Shown here: positions 1 to 10,143 of the stretch, piece by piece
How positions within the stretch are numbered: position 1 is the first letter of the stretch
How the letters are laid out: each line of letters starts with the position of its first letter
Virus genome (UHGV): UHGV-2042139
DNA length: 10,143 nt
From: a virus
Direction: 5' to 3' (one strand)
Translations under genes and position numbers: made by a program
Notes under the pieces: model-generated
What the model saw: only the letters and a program-made list of their open reading frames with translations
The model's database searches: none
Told to the model about the DNA's origin: nothing

Positions 1-711
1 ATGAAAATTAGAAAAGTTGTTTTAACAAAAGCAGAGAAGTATTCTGATGAAATGGGTAATGAGATCCAGTACGAAGGTAGTTGTGACGTCAAACTAATTC
101 AGTTTAGAGGATCTAATAATAAACTTATCATTCATAAAGATGCATCATTAAAATATTTTGAGATATATTTTGACTGCAACAATGGGTATTTTGAAATTGG
201 CCCATGCCATATCGCAAACAAAGGTATACAAGCCCATATAAGAGTGGGTGAGAATTCCTCCATAAAAATAGGCTCTGATTTCACTTGCACTGGTAAAGGT
301 ATGATTTCTGCTGTAGAAAACTCAAGCATAATTATTGGCGATGACTGCATGTTTTCAAGTGGAAATGAAGTTAAAACTGATGACTCCCACCCTATTTTTA
401 GTGTAGTAACAGGTGAACGTATAAATATGCCAAAATCTATTTATATTGGAAGTCATGTCTGGGTTGGCCGCCGAGCGGCAATACTTGGTGGTGCAGAAAT
501 CGAAAGTGGTAGTGTTATTGGCTATGCAGCTGTTGTTAAAGGACACGTCCCAAATAACTCTATTGCAGCAGGAGTTCCAGCAAGAGTAATAAAAAAAGAC
601 ATTGCCTGGGAAAGACCTCATCTCTCCATACATAAACCTTATGTAAAGCCTAATAAGGACTCCATAAAAACCACAAGTGAATATTGGAACCTAACAAAAG
701 AAAAACAATAA
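1..711 (+). CDS. Hexapeptide-repeat (left-handed beta-helix) O-acetyltransferase, maltose/galactoside-acetyltransferase / NeuO-like; likely modifies a surface polysaccharide
   Basis: 236-aa ORF, ATG at 1, TAA at 709-711. Translation carries imperfect hexapeptide repeats and the typical C-terminal block (IYIGSHVWVGRRAAILGGAEIESGSVIGYAAVVKGHVPNNSIAAGVPARVIKK). The start coincides with the window edge, so the RBS and any upstream repeats cannot be seen. Confidence 0.8.
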   Translation: MKIRKVVLTKAEKYSDEMGNEIQYEGSCDVKLIQFRGSNNKLIIHKDASLKYFEIYFDCNNGYFEIGPCHIANKGIQAHIRVGENSSIKIGSDFTCTGKGMISAVENSSIIIGDDCMFSSGNEVKTDDSHPIFSVVTGERINMPKSIYIGSHVWVGRRAAILGGAEIESGSVIGYAAVVKGHVPNNSIAAGVPARVIKKDIAWERPHLSIHKPYVKPNKDSIKTTSEYWNLTKEKQ

Positions 712-745
712 AAACACACCATATATTGAACGACAAGTAAATCAC

Positions 746-790
746 ATGTCACTCCTAGAATGCGATATCTTTAAGGAGTGACATTTATCT
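746..790. terminator. Candidate bidirectional hairpin between the convergent acetyltransferase and tailspike genes
   Basis: Perfect 11-bp inverted repeat ATGTCACTCCT (746-756) / AGGAGTGACAT (774-784) with a 17-nt loop, followed by TTATCT on the + strand and a T-rich stretch on the - strand. The loop is long for a classic intrinsic terminator. Confidence 0.35.
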
Positions 791-866
791 ATAACAAATT
801 ACTAAAACACCCAAAAAACATAGACTTCAATTGGTAATATTGAGACTTAAGGTGTCAGTAAAATAG

Positions 867-3599
867 TTAATTTGCAAGCTTATTTTCCAGTTCTTCAATC
901 CTCTTTATAATATTTTTCTGACGTATACCTAATGCAGCAATCATTAGATACTGTAATTCATCATTTCTGAATGCATAGCGTTCTCCTGCTTCATGCGTAA
1001 TAGTTATAGCCTCACGAACAAGGTTACCTTCATCATCATAAACAGCTGGATCTGTATCTGTATATGCATCCCATCTGTCATAGCAGATCGCTCCGTATTT
1101 AAATGGATCAAGTCCATTCTCTCTGAATATTTCCATTGCCCGTTGCACCGTAAGTCCGGCATGAAGTCTGGCATCAGCTCCCTTATTTTTTACACTATCA
1201 AGCCATTGATAAAAACCAATTTCATCAACAAGAGCTAACCCAACCGCCTGCTCTTTATCGGAAAGAGTTCTGACTTCCGTTTTCTCTGTTGCATCAGATG
1301 TATTTATAGTTGCAGTCCCTGCGTAGACCTGAGAAAAGCGGTTAACGGACCTTCCAAGTGATACCTGGTTATCAGTTGTTGGCCTTAATGTCGTCGTCGC
1401 CCATGTCGATGTAGTATCTTTAGTCGCAGAAAATACTGTTACATTCCCCTGCTTAAGTCTGACGACACCTCCATCTGTAGAGGCAAGTATCAACTCACCA
1501 GCCGCAGATGGACAATCAGCAGCATGGATATCAATATAAGCACCACCCGCAGTATTCCCATCTTTAGAACGGAACTGCATACCTCGAAAGTTTGAGTCGA
1601 ATACTGCTTTCGTACTTACCCATGAATTATTGTCATGTCCGTAATCTGTATCAAACAGGTTAAGGTTATTTCCATAATTCAACTCGAGGGATTTGGTATA
1701 CTCTCCAATGGCTTCGTCAAATATCGCAATAGTAAATGAACCGTGCTCACGGTTAAAGGCGATATCAGTTCCAGCATAATATTGATGCGCGGTTCCGGTA
1801 TACGGATCGGATTCTGCACCATGCACTGGATGGTTGCCAAGAATATCAGACAGGTTTGCTATTCCAAACAGATGCTTATTTCTGCGAGTATAATCACCTG
1901 ATTTATATGTTGCGCCTGAATCCCATTCACCACTTGTCGCTGCAAGCGATGTTTTTAACCAATAAGACCTGTTTGTCGGAAGATTTCCCTTGTTATCACC
2001 AGTAACAATACTTACCCAATTTTTACCACGATGGCTTACAACATCCCCTGCGCTTTTCCATACATCCATAGCACCACAGACAAGTTCATCACCTCTTATT
2101 GCCAGCCCTTCAGGCTCAAAGCTAACCGGAACTCCGATTTTAGAGTCAGAACCATTTAACTGAGTCTCTGTATAAAGTGATGCGGCAAGTGATACAGGAA
2201 ATGAACGTATTAGCGTACCACCCATATCATAAATCTGTACTGTCCTTACGCATCTTGCAGGAACGCCACCCCAAATTGTGTAAATATATCTGCTATCTGA
2301 TGTAATACCCTGAAGTGTTGCACCATACTGACCTTTACCACGGACAAGTGGAACAGGACCATTAATCGGTCTAACTTTCATTGGGTTAGAAGAAGATTCC
2401 ACTTCTTTGCGATCATATACGTATAAAAAGCGGCCAGTCCCAGCGTTTGATGTCGCAATTAATATGACATATCGCCCATCATTAGATACACAAATACTTG
2501 CCCGCTGCGCAAGGTTAATCAGATTATTATCACCCGGCTCACCAAATACTCGGTAATGAGTTATATCTTCAGCAGATGTTGATGCCCCTTTCCATTTTGT
2601 CTTTGAATACCCCTTCCCTCCTAGAGAGGAACCAGTCTCAGCAATTGTTGTTGTAAACAGATATAGTTCACCGTTCTCTATTGTGGCAGAAAGATCTGAA
2701 CCGTGACCAAGAGGCAATGGCTCTGTAAATGTCACAACATAAAGAGTTGAACCATCGCTTGTATAGTGCCACTCACTGATCCTTGTGAGGGTGTCCGTTC
2801 CCCAGTTAGAACCTCCAACCTGTTGAGTGATAAAAACCTTCTCAATACCTTCATGCCTTACACAAGCTATTCCCTGCAATGCATTTTGTGCATTCGCATA
2901 TATAGTTGGCGCATTGATATCATCACCAAAATTCAGGGTCGCAAGTTTTCTTTGTCCAATGGAGAAACTTTGCATCGGCGGATTAACAGAAATGCGAACA
3001 CCATTACTGATTAGAACACCATCACCGGAGAAGCGTGAAATATCTATTTTCGATGCATCAACTATAAACTCACCAGAAGGCACATGAACCAAACCACTAT
3101 TTCCTGCGCTAGATGCGGCGTCAAGAAAAGCCTGTGTTGAATCTCTATTCCCAGAGTCATCCGCCCCCCACCCGCGAACGTCTTTATCATCCCGCCATCG
3201 TGCAATCTGTAATTCAGGGTATTTTTTAGCACCATCAGGATCTTCTAATTGCTGCCGTAACTGATCCGGGTCATACTTCAGCACATTCGGAAAATAGAAC
3301 TGCTGCGTACCATAAGCATCGTACACAGCCATAGAGTGTCCTTTCACAGTAACGAATTTGGCAATCTGTCCGTTATATACAGGATATCCAGCAGCATTGA
3401 TAACGATTGGTTGCGAAACAGGAACGTGAGAACCATCTTCATTCTCTACATAAACCTGAATCTGGTTTTCAGGATTTACAGGGTCAGTGTCAATTTTACC
3501 GATATAAATTTTTCCATTAGCTACGGCTTTAAAAGAACGAGCCATAGTGAAGAGTTGAGAAGGCATCCCAATTACAACATTTGGAGTTATATCAGGCAT
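867..3599 (-). CDS. Phage tailspike protein: P22 gp9-like N-terminal head-binding domain, divergent central receptor-binding/depolymerase body, C-terminal intramolecular-chaperone-like (peptidase S74-like) domain with terminal coiled coil
   Basis: N-terminus [59 protein letters not shown]...VLKYDPDQ matches the P22 tailspike head-binding domain ([43 protein letters not shown]...). C-terminal stretch [34 protein letters not shown]...[11 protein letters not shown]...IEELENKL resembles the autocleaving chaperone domain of endosialidase-type tailspikes, as recalled from memory. Start chosen at the ATG at 3599 (AGGA 8 nt upstream); an alternative ATG lies at 3608, and the ORF-track start at 3752 is an upstream extension with no homology. 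Confidence 0.85.
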
Positions 3600-3916
3600 A
3601 TTAGTCATCCTGTTTGAAAATTTAGATATTGAAGAAAACGGAATGACTGCAGACAAAGATGCAATTGTTTTGAAAAATAATCTTCTATTCACTTTAAAAC
3701 TATGCAACATGAACAAAACAATTATTTTACAACAAGCAAGAATCTTGATCAACAGACATATGCTTTATGCGTTTAATGCGTCACTTAAAAATAACAAGTA
3801 CTACTTTTATTCCTATCGTCCATGATTTTCATTTTCAAATATTATTAAATAACAATTCCTATTTATAATATCTGTCATTTAATCTGCTCCAGATAAAAGG
3901 AATCGCTGCAGCATTG

Positions 3917-3961
3917 CCACAGTGATGCATTATTAATCAAACAAAGAGACCACAGTGGTCT
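3917..3961. promoter_or_regulatory. Candidate operator region: 15-bp perfect palindrome plus an upstream CACAGTG core copy, in the tailspike-mnt intergenic region
   Basis: AGACCACAGTGGTCT at 3947-3961 is a perfect 7+1+7 palindrome about 70 bp upstream of the mnt ATG. A second copy of CCACAGTG lies at 3917-3924, with centres 33 bp apart. Promoter hexamers could not be assigned confidently by eye. Confidence 0.35.
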
Positions 3962-4024
3962 TATTGAGGATGCAACCAGCAGATAATAAGATGCCGATCC
4001 ACTCACAAAAGCGAGGCATCAAGA

Positions 4025-4276
4025 ATGGGAAGAGATGACCCGCAATTTAATCTGCGGCTACCTTACGAATTAAAGGAAAAACTAAAACAGCGAGCCAAAT
4101 CCAATTGCCGCTCTCTTAATTCAGAATTAGTTCAGATAGTGACTGATGCTGTATCAAAGCCATCCAAAATTTCAGGCTATCGAGACGATGCGGAACGAAT
4201 CGCTGATGAGCAGTCCGAACTTGTTAAGAAGATGGTGTTTGATACGCTGAAAGATTTGTACAAAAAACCCACCTGA
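4025..4276 (+). CDS. mnt: Mnt-type ribbon-helix-helix repressor (Arc/MetJ superfamily) with C-terminal tetramerisation coiled coil
   Basis: 83-aa ORF with GAGG 8 nt upstream of the ATG. MGRDDPQFNLRLPYELKEKLKQRAKSNCRSLNSELVQIV...YRDDAERIADEQSELVKKMVFDTLKDLYKKPT aligns along its full length with P22 Mnt as recalled (ARDDPHFNFRMPMEVREKLKFRAEANGRSMNSELLQIV...AERLADEQSELVKKMVFDTLKDLYKKTT). The N-terminal strand reads PQFNLR, as in P22 Arc. Confidence 0.85.
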   Translation: MGRDDPQFNLRLPYELKEKLKQRAKSNCRSLNSELVQIVTDAVSKPSKISGYRDDAERIADEQSELVKKMVFDTLKDLYKKPT

Positions 4277-4292: not shown

Positions 4293-4712
4293 TTAGTCTT
4301 GCTTTGTGGACGGTATAAGTGATGCATTTGCCTCTTTTGGCTTCAAGGTATACATTCCACCATTAAATGGATCTACAGCAAGCCAACCAATTAACCCACC
4401 AAACACAAGGTTCCCACCAATATACCAACCATTAGCATTGGCTTTGATTGGCAGGGTAACTGGTTCATACCCATCCTTCTCCATAGTGATCTGGTAGCTC
4501 TTTTTGCCAAAATAGCTACCATCTGACTTGGCGAGCGTTACACCTTGTGGGGTCTTACCTTGCGCAACAATCACACCTGACTCATCTTTTACCTTAAAGC
4601 TCGCGCCAGAAGGATTGCTGTTCACTTGCACAAGTTGCGTTTCATCACCAACAATAGTTGCGCACCCAGATAACATGATAACGCCAGCAACGACGCTAAT
4701 AATCCTCTTCAT
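4293..4712 (-). CDS. Lipoprotein with PEGA-like beta domain and C-terminal glycine-zipper segment; function unknown (candidate superinfection-exclusion or envelope protein)
   Basis: Signal peptide with lipobox (MKRIISVVAGVIMLSGC), then a PEGA-like pattern (VQVNSNPSGASFKVKDESGVIVAQGKTPQGVTL...GYEPVTLPIKA) and GGNLVFGGLIGWL. Start taken at the internal ATG at 4712 (lipoprotein signal begins there); the ORF-track start at 4745 would add an acidic 11-residue extension. Ends 7 nt before the terminator hairpin. Confidence 0.7.
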   Translation of the reverse strand: MKRIISVVAGVIMLSGCATIVGDETQLVQVNSNPSGASFKVKDESGVIVAQGKTPQGVTLAKSDGSYFGKKSYQITMEKDGYEPVTLPIKANANGWYIGGNLVFGGLIGWLAVDPFNGGMYTLKPKEANASLIPSTKQD

Positions 4713-4830
4713 ATCAATTTCCATATTTAAAAAAAACGGAAACATCCTAATGACAAATCATTCAAATGTGAAGTAGGCAAAAGATGTTTACTTTTTTCAT
4801 GGTATCCTGCTCAAAACTAAGGAGGTTGGT

Positions 4831-5154
4831 GTGTATACAACAGTTATCGTGATAGCTATCGCACTCATTGTGGTTCAGTACCAACTGGCATCTTTAAAAC
4901 AAAAGATATCTGACCTCAAGACTGAGAACGAAGCACTTAAAAACTCAATAAAAGATGAGAAGAACAAACTATCATTCACTATATCTGATATTGAGCAATC
5001 CATTGAAATTATTGAGAATAATATTAACAGACTAAAAAAAGAAGATATTCATGAAATCAATGACAATATCAAGGATTTGAAATCTTGGCTTAGGAATGTA
5101 GGGCAAATCGCCACATCAACACGAGATAAGCTCAATCCATCCATGGATGATTAA
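4831..5154 (+). CDS. Small membrane-anchored coiled-coil protein (N-terminal transmembrane helix, then heptad-rich domain); function unknown
   Basis: GTG start preceded by a strong SD, AAGGAGGT, at 4819-4826. N-terminal hydrophobic helix TTVIVIAIALIVVQY followed by a Lys/Glu-rich coiled-coil-like sequence. Markedly more AT-rich than its neighbours. Its TAA stop (5152-5154) directly abuts the stop of the convergent ORF (5155-5157). Confidence 0.6.
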   Translation: MYTTVIVIAIALIVVQYQLASLKQKISDLKTENEALKNSIKDEKNKLSFTISDIEQSIEIIENNINRLKKEDIHEINDNIKDLKSWLRNVGQIATSTRDKLNPSMDD

Positions 5155-5910
5155 TTACTCCTGTGCTATTCCGCTTAGCGACGCTACAATGCCAGCCCTC
5201 GCTAAGCGATTGAACTCTTCGTTTCCAACTGCATCACGTATTGCTTTTACGGCGGCTTTATTTGCCATAAATCTGCGTTCCGCCGCCGCTAATGCTTCTT
5301 TACTTCCGCCAGCTCTTACTGCTTTCGTGGCTTCCTGAACTGCTTTCTCTATCGCATATCGACCGCTACGCGTGGTGGCAATTTTAGATACAGCGCCTTT
5401 TAACCCGGCGCCAACTAAAGCACCTGCGGCAGCGCCTGCAATGCCCCCTCCTGCTCCACCAACAATGGCACCTGATGTTGAGTTGGCAATTGCATTTAAC
5501 ACTGTTGATGTGACGTTGGATAAACCGGCATCCAGATCGCGTAGTACATTGGCAGTTCTCCCTGTTCTTTCAATATACTGCTGAGGTTTCACTGCTGCTC
5601 TTGCAAGAGTGCCATATGCATCAGCAATTCTTCCAAGTTCTGAGGAATATCGGCTAATGGCTTTTACATTTTGTGGAGTGAGTATCTCTGCGATATGGTT
5701 AATTCCTGCTGCATCAGCTTTGCCACCACGTACACCATGCGAGATAGCATCTTGCAACATTGATGATATAGCAGGAACACGCTCTGATTCTGGCAGCGCG
5801 CGGATCATAGAATGGAACCCAGCAGGACCATTAAGACCTTTAATAGGATTCGACCCTAAGCGAGATATGCCATTCAAAGGAACTCGCCACAACGCGCTTG
5901 ATGATGCCAT
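5155..5910 (-). CDS. GC-rich Gly/Ala-rich hypothetical protein with glycine-zipper segment; possibly a 3' remnant of a larger virion (ejection-protein-like) gene or an intact membrane-active protein
   Basis: Uninterrupted 251-codon ORF containing GAIVGGAGGGIAGAAAGALVGAGLKGA. No convincing SD before the ATG at 5910. The opposite strand is broken into three same-frame ORFs with low-complexity Pro/Ala translations, consistent with the minus strand being the coding one. GC-rich sequence inflates ORF length, so confidence is moderate. Confidence 0.45.
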   Translation of the reverse strand: MASSSALWRVPLNGISRLGSNPIKGLNGPAGFHSMIRALPESERVPAISSMLQDAISHGVRGGKADAAGINHIAEILTPQNVKAISRYSSELGRIADAYGTLARAAVKPQQYIERTGRTANVLRDLDAGLSNVTSTVLNAIANSTSGAIVGGAGGGIAGAAAGALVGAGLKGAVSKIATTRSGRYAIEKAVQEATKAVRAGGSKEALAAAERRFMANKAAVKAIRDAVGNEEFNRLARAGIVASLSGIAQE

Positions 5911-5959
5911 TCACCAAGCCAAATACGTTTCAGCGATCTGGAAAAAGTTAGCTAAATAA
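5873..5959 (+). pseudogene. Possible 3'-terminal remnant of a DnaQ-like (DEDDh) 3'-5' exonuclease gene
   Basis: Plus-strand translation ends ...FKGTRHNALDDAIHQAKYVSAIWKKLAK, stopping at 5957-5959, 16 nt before the SD/ATG of the next operon gene. HNALDDA resembles the Exo III motif (H-x-A-x-x-D) of DEDDh exonucleases. No motifs I or II upstream. Partly antisense to the first codons of the 5155..5910 ORF. Confidence 0.2.
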
Positions 5960-5975
5960 TCAACAGGAGAAAACC

Positions 5976-6269
5976 ATGCCAGCGCCTCTGTATGGTGCGG
6001 ACGACGCGCGCCGCTGTTCCGGCAATTCCGTATCGGAGGTGCTGGATAAATTCAGAAAAAACTACGACCGGATAATGTCGCTACCGCAGGAAACGAAAGA
6101 GGAAAAGGAATTTCGCCACTGTATATGGCTTGCAGAGAAAGAAGAACGCGAGCGAATTTACCAGACATCAATCCAACCATTCCGCAAAGCCACATATACC
6201 CACTTCCCTGAAATTGACCCGCGCCTGCGTAATTACCGCTCACGTTATGGCGCTATCAGTAATGACTGA
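5976..6269 (+). CDS. Hypothetical protein, first gene of an early-region-type small-gene operon
   Basis: 97-aa ORF, ATG at 5976 with SD AGGAGA 5 nt upstream. No family recognised from the translation. Confidence 0.6.
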
Positions 6270-8746: not shown

Positions 8747-8977
8747 ATGACAATCAATATTCAGCCGATTCTAATAAACCGCGAGCGTGTTCAGGAGATG
8801 CTTGGTGGTATCTCCAGAACTACTTTTTACCGGAAGCGTAAACAGTGGGAGCAATCAGGGACACCATTCCCTCGGGAAGTGGAAGAAATCCACCCACCGA
8901 AAGGCGGCGCCCTCTTTCGCTACAAGGAAGTTATTCAGTTTTGCAAAGATAAAGGATTGATTTCCGAACACTCTTGA
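8747..8977 (+). CDS. AlpA/excisionase-family helix-turn-helix regulator (prophage regulatory protein)
   Basis: 76-aa translation ...INRERVQEMLGGISRTTFYRKRKQ...GTPFPREV...FRYKEVIQFCKDKGL fits the AlpA/Xis-type pattern (compare E. coli AlpA ...LRLPAVIQKTGMARATIYDWL...FPKK...W...EIDEWL). Its 3' end overlaps the integrase 3' end by 43 nt in convergent orientation. Confidence 0.7.
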   Translation: MTINIQPILINRERVQEMLGGISRTTFYRKRKQWEQSGTPFPREVEEIHPPKGGALFRYKEVIQFCKDKGLISEHS

Positions 8978-10143
8978 ATTTTCTTAGCCCATAATTCTGC
9001 TGCGTCCTGCTGCTCGGGGATGTAGTCATACTGGTCATAAACAGCCAGCATCCCCGTGAGCTTATGCCCGAGAATTTTCTCCGAAACATGAGGTGCTACT
9101 CCAAGTTCAGCCATTTTTGTTTTGCACGTTCTGCGCAGATCGTGCAATGACCAGTGCTCGCCCCCCATAACATCTTCTACCTGTTCTGCAATAGAAATTA
9201 GGGTGCTGGCAGACATTGGGCGATTTTCCTGTAACTTAGCCGGAGGAAATACGATTGACAGATCAGGGTATAGATCAAATACCTGCTGCAAATAATCTGC
9301 TGCGAGTTTTGAAATACCGCGAACAAATCGCTTACGCGTTTTTGAGTTCTCTTTCGGTATAGTCCATTCTCTAGACTTCAGATCAAAATCAGTCTTCTTA
9401 GCCAACCGCAATTCAACACCACGACAACCAGTTAACGCAACAATTCGAATAAACATTTTGTTTTGCCACGACATTTTCGTTTTGTCGATGGCATTCCAGA
9501 ATGCGCCTATCTCAACATCGTTAAGAAAACGTTCGCCATTATTAGGTCTACTGCCGATATCATTAATCTCAAGAAGCATCAGTGCATTTGATGTTATGCG
9601 TTTTCTGCGTAACGCATAGCGGATCACTTGCTTCATCTTCACCAGTACATTTCCCGCCTGTACGGGTGACCCACCTTTTGTTATGCGAATGAATATTTGC
9701 TCCCACTCTACAGGACTCATTTCATCTGCAATCAGCTTACCGTAATTGTCGGTGATGTGAAGTTTCAGCATCCGCTTCCAGTATTCGTACTTCACCATCT
9801 CTTTTACTGAAGGAGTATCAAACCACTCGTCAACTAGGGTACTGATGCTTGGGGAACTTGATGCAATATCTTTGGCTTTCTTCCTTTGCATGGCTGGGTC
9901 TTTACCCTTCTCCAACCACCCTTTACACTCTTCCAATGCATCGCGAGCTTCCTTAAGCGACATCTTCCCGTACGTTCCGAGCTTTAACCTGGCGGGTTTT
10001 CCATTGAAACGATAGCGGTATTGAAAGGTGATAAGTCCCTTCGGGCTGATCCTGACAGAAAGTCCGCCTCCGTCAGCTATCTCCTCAGGTCCCTCATATG
10101 CTTTTCCGGATATACGTCGCAGCTTTGTATCGTTGAGTGCCAT
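8935..10143 (-). CDS. int: Tyrosine site-specific integrase, P4-like family, with N-terminal arm-binding (DUF4102-type) domain
   Basis: 402-aa ORF. N-terminus LNDTKLRRISGKAYEGPEEIADGGGLSVRISPKGLITFQYRYRFNGKPARLKLGTY...SLKEARDA is typical of P4-type integrases. C-terminal catalytic region contains HDLRRT...LGH...AVYDQY. The start codon is the final triplet of the window, so the upstream att site and any tRNA are outside it. Confidence 0.9.
   Translation of the reverse strand: MALNDTKLRRISGKAYEGPEEIADGGGLSVRISPKGLITFQYRYRFNGKPARLKLGTYGKMSLKEARDALEECKGWLEKGKDPAMQRKKAKDIASSSPSISTLVDEWFDTPSVKEMVKYEYWKRMLKLHITDNYGKLIADEMSPVEWEQIFIRITKGGSPVQAGNVLVKMKQVIRYALRRKRITSNALMLLEINDIGSRPNNGERFLNDVEIGAFWNAIDKTKMSWQNKMFIRIVALTGCRGVELRLAKKTDFDLKSREWTIPKENSKTRKRFVRGISKLAADYLQQVFDLYPDLSIVFPPAKLQENRPMSASTLISIAEQVEDVMGGEHWSLHDLRRTCKTKMAELGVAPHVSEKILGHKLTGMLAVYDQYDYIPEQQDAAELWAKKIQECSEINPLSLQN

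What the first reader, a model, noticed from the sequence alone, without database searches (positions are those of the whole stretch)
1..866. Soluble hexapeptide-type acetyltransferase at the lysogenic-conversion position next to the tailspike
Temperate podoviruses usually place receptor-modifying genes beside and convergent to the tailspike gene (gtr operon, membrane Oac, NeuO). This one is a soluble left-handed beta-helix acetyltransferase, the class used by NeuO-type capsule O-acetylation. Paired with a tailspike of unassigned specificity, it may be a receptor-modification / receptor-recognition pair for an uncharacterised polysaccharide. No 5' heptanucleotide repeat tract (NeuO-style phase variation) is visible, but the gene begins at the window edge, so repeats upstream cannot be excluded.
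Basis: partly seen in the sequence, partly recalled or inferred. Interest (0 to 1): 0.45.

Follow-up and report, generated by a model that had tools for sequence, protein, structure and literature searches.

The report
Prophage capsule acetyltransferase beside tailspike
This is a complete, soluble NeuO-type acetyltransferase gene at the end of a decayed P22-like prophage in E. coli; it most likely acetylates one rare teichoic-acid-like capsule that the neighbouring tailspike recognises, making it a second, different example of the K1/CUS-3 capsule-editing arrangement.

Summary
Bases 1-711 (+) encode a complete 236-aa soluble hexapeptide-repeat acetyltransferase, convergent with a tailspike gene (867-3599, -). 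Its best solved relatives are the capsule O-acetyltransferases NeuO and OatWY, and all six of their shared active-site residues are conserved. Parent genomes show an in-frame stop 36 nt upstream and no NeuO-style repeats.

The gene is the outermost gene of a P22-like prophage inserted in the thrS leader. This window is a 10-kb deletion remnant of it.

New here: the gene occurs in 5 of 5426 complete E. coli genomes. These are exactly the five that carry one rare group-2 capsule locus (TagD-like, TagF-like, TPR/Capsule_synth, GT8). They have four different O types and at least three chromosomal backgrounds.

Orthologues (43-61% identity) lie inside TagF-type capsule loci of other Proteobacteria, or in other prophages next to a homologous tailspike.

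Most likely function, inferred rather than shown: cytoplasmic O-acetylation of that capsule, changing the antigen and the phage receptor.

Verdict: a new variant of a known kind, of moderate interest.

The parts
1..711 (+). Complete CDS of a 236-aa soluble left-handed beta-helix O-acetyltransferase (identical to WP_001313877.1). Predicted catalytic His130 and Trp154. The other conserved NeuO/OatWY active-site residues are Met117, Arg157, Trp203 and Arg205.
   Evidence: NeuO residues M134, H147, W171, R174, W220, R222; invariant or nearly invariant in 39 homologues; AlphaFold2 pLDDT 93.9; best PDB folds are NeuO and OatWY; no membrane segment; GC 36% against 44% for the rest of the window.
746..784 (.). 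Hairpin in the 155-nt spacer between the two convergent genes. It is a plausible bidirectional transcription stop.
   Evidence: ViennaRNA fold: -17.2 kcal/mol on the + strand and -20.0 on the - strand. The simple terminator scan did not call it because there is no clean T run. Its function is not shown.
867..3599 (-). Tailspike gene (910 aa). It has three regions: P22-type head-binding domain (3261-3599); receptor-binding centre predicted to be a beta-propeller (about 1440-3260); endosialidase-type stalk end and Peptidase_S74 autochaperone (1113-1412).
   Evidence: (annotated start corresponds to window position 3599). It is always adjacent to the acetyltransferase in the 9 loci read. It is homologous (30-32% identity over 600-780 aa) to the tailspikes that sit next to acetyltransferase homologues in two other prophages.
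4025..4276 (+). Mnt-type (Arc/ribbon-helix-helix) repressor of the P22 immI region. Context only. The arc and ant genes that lie between it and the tailspike in fuller prophages are missing here.
5155..5910 (-). C-terminal fragment of the gp16-type DNA transfer protein. It marks the deletion that removed the virion, lysis, replication and immunity genes; the junction lies at about 5842-5976. Context only.
   Evidence: PHROG 770, profile positions 468-666 of 668.
8935..10143 (-). Tyrosine integrase with an Arm-DNA-bind_3 N-terminus, at the other end of the prophage. Context only.
   Evidence: The att core ACACGAAAGATCACATACAAAGA was found on both sides of the prophage in L001.

Best explanation
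The gene encodes a cytoplasmic, trimeric, acetyl-CoA-dependent O-acetyltransferase of the NeuO/OatWY type. It is carried as a lysogenic-conversion gene at the attL end of a P22-like prophage inserted in the thrS leader.

Proposed mechanism, in four steps:
1. The gene is expressed from the prophage, or from its remnant.
2. His130 acts as the base, working with Trp154 of the neighbouring subunit, to transfer acetyl groups onto the nascent group-2 capsule polymer.
3. The host makes that polymer with a rare teichoic-acid-like kps region 2: a TagD-like CDP-glycerol synthase, a TagF-like glycerophosphotransferase, a TPR/Capsule_synth protein and a GT8 glycosyltransferase. Acetylation happens before export through KpsMT. 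The host locus has no acetyltransferase of its own.
4. The acetylated capsule is predicted to differ antigenically. It is also predicted to be a poorer receptor or substrate for the phage's own beta-propeller tailspike and for related phages, as NeuO does for K1.

Shown here: the gene is complete; its fold, family and catalytic residues; its position in the prophage; its strict co-occurrence with one capsule locus across different O types and chromosomal backgrounds; and the presence of orthologues inside TagF-type capsule loci.

Inferred: the substrate, the acetylated position, expression, and the effect on the tailspike.
For: **Family**
- NeuO E 2.7e-32 and OatWY E 5e-25 are the best solved relatives.
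- All six NeuO/OatWY active-site residues are conserved.
- The AlphaFold2 model has pLDDT 93.9, and its best PDB fold matches are NeuO and OatWY.

**Position**
- It is the last gene before the att core, convergent to the tailspike, in all 9 loci read.
- Strain E4 carries a full 40-kb prophage of this type.

**Target: co-occurrence in E. coli**
- The gene is present in 5 of 5426 complete E. coli genomes.
- The full kps region 2 of strain TUM10008 is present in exactly the same five genomes and no others.
- Those five have O types O11, O4, O7, O7 and O23.
- The thrS flank falls into at least three backgrounds 1.3-1.5% apart, while the acetyltransferase gene differs by 0-3 nt.

**Target: orthologue contexts**
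- 55-61% identical proteins sit inside capsule loci with the same TagD/TagF/Capsule_synth set in Acidovorax, an Alcaligenaceae bacterium and Pusillimonas.
- The E. coli locus proteins are 34-72% identical to the proteins of those loci.
- Across species representatives, a TagF-like domain lies within 10 kb in 23 of the 30 best-scoring homologue loci. It does so in 1 of the 50 weaker ones (Fisher p = 6e-13).
- In Ewingella and Pantoea the homologue sits in kps region 2 beside a GT2-TagF-TPR polymerase.

**Module**
- Homologues in two other prophages also sit next to a homologous tailspike.
- One Alcaligenaceae genome has both the capsule-locus copy and the prophage copy.

**Retention**
- The ORF is intact in four different decay states of the prophage. 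One of these is a 4.7-kb stump in GMF065.

**Precedent**
- NeuO-mediated acetylation increases survival of K1 strains exposed to lytic K1 phage (PMC13001214).
Against: - There is no biochemical or expression evidence.
- No sigma-70 consensus promoter and no Shine-Dalgarno sequence are visible upstream.
- The capsule type is unnamed and its chemical structure is unknown.
- The small TagF-like enzyme could be a CpsA-like transition transferase that only builds a glycerol-phosphate linker (PMC11666461). If so, the acetylated residue need not be part of a glycerol-phosphate repeat.
- The five-genome co-occurrence rests on few genomes and at most 3-4 independent lineages.
- In the wider collection the capsule-locus GT8 protein is listed in 1138 blocks and the acetyltransferase in 717. 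Many carriers of the locus therefore lack the gene, and co-occurrence in draft genomes was not tested directly.
- The tailspike fold match to wall-teichoic-acid-binding proteins has low TM-scores, about 0.35.
Confidence: 0.65

Rival explanations
1. It is a true functional equivalent of NeuO and O-acetylates polysialic acid (K1 or K92).
For: NeuO is the best solved relative, and the six active-site residues are conserved, including Trp203. The equivalent NeuO residue (Trp220) was proposed to hold the sialic acid N-acetyl group.
Against: - Identity to NeuO is only 38.5%, over residues 33-206.
- The carriers' kps region 2 has no annotated neu genes.
- The tailspike has no endosialidase catalytic domain.
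- There is no poly-psi repeat tract.
- Closer relatives lie in TagF-type capsule loci.
Confidence: 0.03
2. It acetylates the O antigen or another LPS or envelope sugar from the cytoplasmic side, like WbbJ-type enzymes, and the tailspike is O-antigen specific as in P22, Sf6 and HK620.
For: P22-like phages usually target O antigen. WbbJ, LacA and MAT models give weak matches. The tailspike N-terminus resembles those of Sf6 and HK620.
Against: - The five carriers have four different O-antigen loci while the module is 99.3-100% identical.
- The O11 locus occurs in 66 complete genomes. TUM10008 is the only carrier among the 60 listed (6 were not listed; the other four carriers type as O4, O7 and O23), and the gene itself is in only five genomes.
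- NCBIfam scores are far below the cut-offs.
- The tailspike similarity to Sf6 and HK620 is limited to the head-binding domain.
Confidence: 0.08
3. It is a general small-molecule or xenobiotic acetyltransferase (maltose/galactoside, Vat or CatB type) carried as a phage moron unrelated to surface glycans.
For: Weak matches to these families.
Against: These matches are about 20 orders of magnitude weaker than the NeuO match. The gene contexts of homologues are overwhelmingly capsule loci or positions next to tailspikes.
Confidence: 0.05
4. It is an unexpressed relic of a dead prophage with no present function in this strain.
For: The window is a deletion remnant. No promoter or ribosome-binding site was recognised.
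Against: - The ORF is intact and nearly invariant in every decay state read.
- Its catalytic residues are kept.
- It survives even where the tailspike is cut by an IS element and the rest of the prophage is gone.
Confidence: 0.12

Closest known systems
NeuO, the polysialic acid O-acetyltransferase of E. coli K1 prophage CUS-3 (PDB 3JQY)
   Same: Both are soluble left-handed beta-helix enzymes. NeuO is the best sequence and fold match. All six active-site residues are conserved. Both are encoded by a P22-like prophage next to the tailspike gene at the prophage end. Both hosts make a group-2 (kps) capsule.
   Different: - Identity is 38.5% over 174 residues.
- There is no AAGACTC repeat tract and so no NeuO-type phase variation.
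- The gene is convergent to the tailspike rather than co-directional.
- The integrase is at the opposite end of the prophage.
- The insertion site is the thrS leader.
- The partner tailspike is not an endosialidase.
- The host capsule locus is TagD/TagF-type, not neu.
OatWY of Neisseria meningitidis serogroups W and Y (PDB 2WLC-2WLG)
   Same: Second-best solved relative (E 5e-25), with the same fold and active-site residues. It also modifies a capsule in the cytoplasm.
   Different: It is a chromosomal capsule-locus gene, not phage-borne, and acts on sialic-acid-containing polymers.
Uncharacterised acetyltransferases inside TagF-type group-2 capsule loci (Pusillimonas, Acidovorax, Alcaligenaceae, Ewingella, Rahnella, Pantoea, Neisseria, Actinobacillus and others)
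   Same: They form the same clade (39-61% identity, full length). Their host loci contain TagF-like, and often TagD-like and Capsule_synth, proteins homologous to those of the E. coli carriers.
   Different: They are resident genes of the capsule locus. In E. coli the locus lacks such a gene and the phage brings it. None of them has been characterised, as far as my searches showed.
Maltose, galactoside and WbbJ-type acetyltransferases (MAT, LacA, WbbJ)
   Same: Same hexapeptide-repeat superfamily, with the same catalytic His/Trp arrangement.
   Different: NCBIfam scores are 50-56 bits against cut-offs of 243-347, and PDB E-values are about 1e-13. This protein is not a member of those families.
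Oac of phage Sf6 and GtrABC of P22 (classical lysogenic conversion next to the tailspike)
   Same: Same genomic niche and the same logic: the phage modifies the glycan that it uses as its receptor.
   Different: Those are integral membrane proteins that act on O antigen. This one is soluble and is inferred to act on a capsule.

Membership tests
Hexapeptide-repeat (left-handed beta-helix) acyltransferase superfamily | Imperfect hexapeptide repeats detected by the family model | tested here: met
   Pfam PF00132, 29.4 bits against a cut-off of 27, residues 147-181.
Hexapeptide-repeat (left-handed beta-helix) acyltransferase superfamily | Left-handed beta-helix fold | tested here: met
   AlphaFold2 model with pLDDT 93.9 and pTM 0.90, made of short beta strands throughout. 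All top PDB fold matches are left-handed beta-helix enzymes.
Hexapeptide-repeat (left-handed beta-helix) acyltransferase superfamily | Catalytic histidine on a loop, and the tryptophan typical of acetyl-CoA users | tested here: met
   His130 and Trp154 align with NeuO His147 and Trp171 and are invariant in 39 homologues.
NeuO/OatWY-type capsule O-acetyltransferases | Six shared active-site residues (Met, His, Trp, Arg, Trp, Arg) | tested here: met
   M117, H130, W154, R157, W203 and R205 correspond to NeuO M134, H147, W171, R174, W220 and R222.
NeuO/OatWY-type capsule O-acetyltransferases | Closer to NeuO/OatWY than to any other solved acetyltransferase | tested here: met
   E 2.7e-32 and 5e-25 against 6e-14 for the next family. 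Foldseek ranks 1-8 are NeuO and OatWY.
NeuO/OatWY-type capsule O-acetyltransferases | Acceptor is a sialic-acid-containing capsule polymer | tested here: not met
   This was tested indirectly. The carriers' kps region 2 has no annotated sialic acid genes, and the nearest homologues lie in TagF-type loci. Enzyme specificity itself cannot be tested with these tools.
NeuO specifically | 5' heptanucleotide (AAGACTC) repeat tract giving phase variation and an RLKTQDS N-terminal extension | tested here: not met
   Tandem Repeats Finder gives 0 rows in the gene and 400 nt upstream. The N-terminus is non-repetitive. CUS-3 has 19 copies of the repeat.
NeuO specifically | Encoded by a P22-like prophage beside the tailspike gene | tested here: met
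Maltose/galactoside/WbbJ acetyltransferases | Score above the curated NCBIfam cut-off | tested here: not met
   56.4 against 314, 54.2 against 243, and 50.7 against 347 bits.
Prophage lysogenic-conversion (receptor-modifying) genes | Located inside the prophage, at its end, next to the receptor-binding protein gene | tested here: met
   The att core lies about 345 nt upstream of the ATG and the tailspike stop lies 155 nt downstream.
Prophage lysogenic-conversion (receptor-modifying) genes | Modifies the glycan used as receptor and reduces superinfection | not testable with these tools
   Only inferred, from co-occurrence with one capsule locus and from the NeuO precedent.

The most novel reading that the evidence does not exclude
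The acetyltransferase and beta-propeller tailspike form a mobile capsule-editing module for teichoic-acid-like Gram-negative capsules, shared by unrelated phages (P22-like in E. coli, others in Alcaligenaceae and an unidentified host). Three further points would make it novel. First, its receptor-binding domain would share ancestry with the wall-teichoic-acid-binding proteins of Bacillus and Staphylococcus phages. Second, in E. coli it would have been domesticated: the acetyltransferase ORF survives in every prophage remnant read, and the full tailspike ORF in the larger ones. Third, its expression would be switched by the two length-variable poly-C tracts upstream. That would give an unrecognised form variation of an untyped K antigen, analogous in outcome to neuO but by a different mechanism.
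Probability: 0.15. Interest if true: 0.7.

Novelty: new variant of a known kind. Interest (0 to 1): 0.5.

Why it matters
CUS-3/NeuO is the one well-studied case in E. coli of a temperate phage that both recognises a capsule and chemically edits it. That editing affects phage resistance and interactions with the immune system (PMC13001214).

This locus looks like a second, independent case, aimed at a different and chemically uncharacterised capsule. It makes four things testable:

- **Capsule type.** It points to a specific rare K locus as the receptor of a P22-like phage.
- **Enzyme family.** It assigns a likely function to a whole clade of unannotated acetyltransferases found in TagF-type capsule loci of Neisseria, Actinobacillus, Pantoea and others. 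[quoted passage not shown]
- **Capsule typing.** It predicts that in-silico K typing from the kps locus alone will miss an acetylation variant encoded elsewhere on the chromosome.
- **Phage tools.** It offers a candidate binding or depolymerising protein for teichoic-acid-like capsules.

Tried and rejected
1. **K2 capsule hypothesis.** I first suspected E. coli K2, because it contains glycerol phosphate and has K2a/K2ab acetyl variants. The CFT073 K2 locus has a different region 2, and only the TagD-like gene is shared (79% amino-acid identity). Rejected.
2. **Tailspike as a phi29 gp12-type beta-helix teichoic acid hydrolase.** This came from the 29% match to Bacillus phage GA1 gp12. The model is instead a beta-propeller whose best fold matches are staphylococcal phage receptor-binding proteins. 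The teichoic-acid theme survives, but enzymatic activity is not supported.
3. **O-antigen specificity.** Rejected, because the carriers have four O types.
4. **A single clone as the explanation for the co-occurrence.** Rejected. The flanks are 1.3-1.5% apart while the module differs by 0-0.65%.
5. **NeuO-style repeats.** None found.
6. **Promoter, terminator and RNA scans.** No sigma-70 promoter stands out and no canonical terminator is called. Rfam gives no match in the window.
7. **Naming the K locus.** The supplements of the EC-K-typing paper list glycerophosphotransferase gene clusters, but I could not map them to this locus.
8. **Locus search with the 39-sequence alignment.** It failed because no stretch was conserved enough. 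I repeated it with 10 close sequences.
9. **Counting capsule-locus carriers.** The representative GT8 protein P0110 turned out to be a rare variant. The exact protein P0151 was used instead.
10. **Checking another tailspike homologue for an adjacent acetyltransferase.** The P0094 contig ends 115 nt after the gene. Uninformative.
11. **Megablast of the gene against the phage collection.** No match.
Full report
**1. The observation**

The window opens with an ATG-initiated ORF, 1-711 on the + strand, encoding 236 aa.

- It matches Pfam Hexapep just above the curated cut-off (29.4 against 27 bits).
- It has no hydrophobic segment long enough to span a membrane.
- A 155-nt AT-rich spacer follows, containing a stable hairpin at 746-784.
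- Next comes the stop codon of a convergent gene. Its product has the P22 head-binding domain at the N-terminus (E 2e-65) and an endosialidase-type Peptidase_S74 chaperone domain at the C-terminus. It is a podovirus tailspike.
- The ORF list extends this gene to a TTG at 3752. The annotated start, which also matches the Sf6 and P22 N-termini, is the ATG at 3599.

I found the identical sequence in five complete E. coli chromosomes and read upstream in one of them, L001.

- An in-frame TGA lies 36 nt upstream of the ATG.
- There is no other ATG in between.
- Tandem Repeats Finder reports nothing in the gene or in the 400 nt before it.
- Homologues align from the first few residues onward.

The gene is therefore complete and has no NeuO-type repeat tract.

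**2. What the protein is**

Against all solved structures, the best sequence matches are two capsule O-acetyltransferases:

- NeuO of the E. coli K1 prophage CUS-3 (E 2.7e-32).
- OatWY of meningococcus serogroups W and Y (E 5e-25).

The maltose and galactoside acetyltransferases come next, at about 1e-13. NCBIfam models for MAT, WbbJ and LacA score 50-56 bits against cut-offs of 243-347, so the protein belongs to none of those families.

The NeuO structure paper names six active-site residues shared by NeuO and OatWY: Met134, His147, Trp171, Arg174, Trp220 and Arg222 (PMC3046976). In the HMMER alignment these correspond to Met117, His130, Trp154, Arg157, Trp203 and Arg205 here. Across 39 homologues, Met117, His130 and Trp154 are invariant, Trp203 and Arg205 are nearly invariant, and Arg157 is nearly invariant among the ten closest.

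An AlphaFold2 model built on that alignment is confident (pLDDT 93.9), and its eight best PDB fold matches are NeuO and OatWY chains. Identity to NeuO is modest, 38.5% over residues 33-206. PHROGs places the protein in a family of unknown function.

**3. Where it sits**

In all nine genomic places read, the gene lies 372-373 nt from the start of thrS, divergent from it, and is followed by the same tailspike.

The attachment core, ACACGAAAGATCACATACAAAGA, occurs about 30 nt upstream of the thrS start codon and again beyond the integrase. The acetyltransferase is therefore the outermost gene of the prophage.

The prophage occurs in several states of decay:

| Strain or locus | State |
|---|---|
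| E4 | Apparently complete 40-kb P22-like prophage: integrase, repressor, replication, lysis, terminase, portal, coat, ejection proteins, mnt/arc/ant, tailspike, acetyltransferase |
| This window (same layout as L003) | 10-kb remnant; everything between a C-terminal fragment of the gp16 DNA transfer protein and abc2 is deleted, and arc and ant are also gone |
| L004 | Another deletion form; the gp16-type DNA transfer gene is complete (719 aa) but little else remains before the integrase |
| TUM10008 | A different deletion form with an IS1 insertion |
| GMF065 | 4.7-kb stump: acetyltransferase with one substitution (S151N), a tailspike truncated by ISEc31, and an integrase fragment |

The acetyltransferase ORF is intact in every state.

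CUS-3 has a related but not identical layout: ant, endosialidase tailspike, neuO (co-directional, with 19 AAGACTC repeats), integrase, attL.

**4. What it most likely acts on**

Four lines of evidence converge.

*First, co-occurrence in E. coli.* The gene is in 5 of 5426 complete E. coli genomes.

- The group-2 capsule locus of one carrier, TUM10008, has a region 2 with four genes: a GT8 glycosyltransferase, a 693-aa TPR/Capsule_synth protein, a 369-aa TagF-like CDP-glycerol glycerophosphotransferase and a 131-aa TagD-like cytidylyltransferase. It has no acetyltransferase.
- A megablast search with that region 2 finds it full-length in exactly five genomes, the same five.
- Two further genomes, SE15 and SCU-102, share a variant without GT8. 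Both lack the acetyltransferase.
- The locus is not the K2 locus of CFT073.

*Second, this is not a single clone and not an O-antigen effect.*

- From the annotated wzx and wzy genes, the carriers are O11, O4, O7, O7 and O23.
- The chromosomal flank on the thrS side falls into at least three backgrounds 1.3-1.5% apart.
- The acetyltransferase gene differs by 0-3 nucleotides, and the acetyltransferase-tailspike module by 0.1-0.65% among the loci that keep a full tailspike.
- The module has therefore spread horizontally into different lineages that share this capsule locus.

*Third, the orthologues.*

- The closest non-E. coli relatives (55-61% identity) lie inside capsule loci of Acidovorax, an Alcaligenaceae bacterium and Pusillimonas. 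There they sit directly beside TagD-like and TagF-like genes and, in the first two, a 750-770-aa Capsule_synth protein.
- The E. coli proteins are 34-50% (TagF-like), 46-72% (TagD-like) and 35-39% (Capsule_synth) identical to these.
- I scanned one genome per species for relatives (80 loci) and searched the flanks with a TagF-domain profile that I built. A TagF-like domain lies within 10 kb in 23 of the 30 best-scoring loci. These include Ewingella, Rahnella, Pantoea, Gilliamella, Neisseria, Actinobacillus, Moraxella and Avibacterium.
- Only 1 of the 50 weaker loci has one (Fisher p = 6e-13).
- In Ewingella and Pantoea the gene sits in kps region 2 next to a Stealth protein and a GT2-TagF-TPR polymerase of the family described by Litschko et al. 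(PMC5974469).
- More distant members in Pseudomonas and Arthrobacter are also flanked by TagF-like genes.

*Fourth, the module recurs in other phages.*

- The 64% identical homologue (L011/L012) and a 59% identical one (L014) are in other prophages.
- Each lies next to a Peptidase_S74 tailspike whose receptor-binding part is 30-32% identical to this one over 600-780 residues.
- The Alcaligenaceae genome carries both a capsule-locus copy and a prophage copy.
- A further homologue sits between the repressor and the integrase of a P2-like Aeromonas prophage.

**5. The tailspike partner**

- Its centre has few relatives. The closest are uncharacterised tailspikes (44-51% identity), the coliphages 683R2 and Gally (45%), and the neck appendage protein gp12 of Bacillus phage GA1 (29% over 81% of the query).
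- The AlphaFold2 model of the centre (pLDDT 78) is built of repeated antiparallel sheets, which I read as a beta-propeller from the strand pattern and the fold matches.
- Its best PDB fold matches are the receptor-binding proteins of the Staphylococcus aureus phages phi11, 80alpha and P68 and of bacteriophage NF5 (E 1e-9 to 1e-11). From my own knowledge, the phi11 and P68 proteins bind wall teichoic acid.
- TM-scores are only about 0.35, and propellers are a common fold, so this is a lead and not proof.
- It fits a teichoic-acid-like receptor. It gives no evidence that the protein is an enzyme.

**6. Mechanism and its limits**

By analogy with NeuO and OatWY, the enzyme should work as a trimer in the cytoplasm. 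It would use acetyl-CoA to acetylate the growing polymer before KpsMT exports it.

For K1, NeuO-mediated acetylation raises survival against lytic K1 phage, and neuO is present in 43.5% of K1 genomes (PMC13001214). The numbers here look similar: the acetyltransferase is indexed in 717 blocks of the assembly collection and the GT8 protein of the capsule locus in 1138.

What is not known:

- Whether and how the gene is expressed. No consensus promoter or ribosome-binding site was found.
- The chemical structure of the capsule.
- Which residue is acetylated. The small TagF-like enzyme could be a CpsA-type transition transferase that only makes a glycerol-phosphate linker (PMC11666461). The Capsule_synth domain belongs to the family of the KpsS and KpsC Kdo transferases. 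The repeat unit may therefore contain Kdo or another sugar.

**7. Comparison, novelty and verdict**

The kind is known: a prophage-borne, soluble, NeuO-type capsule O-acetyltransferase placed beside the tailspike. This example differs in five respects:

- It belongs to a different clade.
- It has no repeat-based phase switch.
- Its partner is a non-sialidase tailspike.
- It uses a new insertion site.
- Its inferred target is a rare teichoic-acid-like capsule that lacks its own acetyltransferase.

My literature searches found no description of this gene or of this clade's function. That does not prove there is none.

I rate it a new variant of a known kind, with interest 0.5.

Noticed in passing
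Outside the window: L001 19874-19880 and 19918-19924 (121-127 nt and 77-83 nt upstream of window position 1): Two poly-C tracts upstream of the acetyltransferase vary in length between strains, while the rest of the 372-nt spacer is almost invariant. They are C7/C7 in eight loci; C7/C8 in E4 and in an independent assembly of the same lineage; and C6/C6 in GMF065. This could be a slipped-strand expression switch, ordinary homopolymer polymorphism, or assembly error.
   Followed up: partly
L001 19657-19760 and 32927-33035 (prophage ends): The att core lies about 30 nt upstream of the thrS start codon. From my own knowledge, this is inside the thrS leader/operator, which mimics tRNA-Thr. The phage brings a look-alike of roughly 105 nt, similar by eye, for the rest of the leader, so thrS keeps an upstream region after insertion. 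A P4-type integrase targeting a tRNA-like mRNA operator would be worth a closer look.
   Followed up: partly
window 3600-4024 and 5155-5976: The window is a deletion derivative. The arc and ant genes are missing between the tailspike and mnt. A 251-aa ORF is the C-terminal third of the gp16 DNA transfer protein, joined near abc2. The whole virion, lysis, replication and immunity region is absent.
   Followed up: yes
window 4293-4745 (-) and 4831-5154 (+): A conserved pair lies between mnt and gp16: a 139-150-aa probable lipoprotein with a weak PEGA-domain match (PHROG 6823) and a 107-aa protein with an N-terminal hydrophobic segment and a coiled coil (PHROG 5962). Both are of unknown function. 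They are possibly further prophage-expressed exclusion genes.
   Followed up: no
window 1440-3260 (-): The tailspike centre is predicted to be a beta-propeller. Its best fold matches are receptor-binding proteins of S. aureus phages (phi11, 80alpha, P68) and of bacteriophage NF5, and it shares 29% identity with Bacillus phage GA1 gp12. This is an unusual relationship for an E. coli P22-like tailspike.
   Followed up: partly
L016 36900-41900; genomes SE15 (NC_013654.1) and SCU-102 (NZ_CP051753.1): A sister capsule locus shares the Capsule_synth, TagF-like and TagD-like genes (94-96% nucleotide identity) but lacks GT8. It occurs in two complete genomes, and neither has the acetyltransferase-tailspike module. 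GT8 may add the residue that the phage recognises or that the enzyme acetylates.
   Followed up: no
L027 4999-5988 and L051 10811-11809: A 330-aa NosD/right-handed beta-helix protein lies in the Acidovorax capsule locus and directly next to the acetyltransferase in the Ewingella kps region 2. It is possibly a capsule-modifying or capsule-trimming enzyme.
   Followed up: no
L014 and L028 (both from assembly GCA_013416395.1, Alcaligenaceae bacterium): One genome holds two paralogues of the acetyltransferase: one in its TagD/TagF/Capsule_synth capsule locus and one in a prophage next to a homologous tailspike. This is an independent replicate of the phage-capsule pairing.
   Followed up: partly
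L034 10001-10690 (Aeromonas veronii): A 47% identical homologue sits between the CI-like repressor and the integrase of a P2-like prophage, with no tailspike beside it.
   Followed up: no
window 3600-3752: The mechanical ORF list extends the tailspike to a TTG at 3752 (961 aa). The real start is the ATG at 3599 (910 aa), judged from the annotation and from alignment to the Sf6 and P22 tailspike N-termini.
   Followed up: yes
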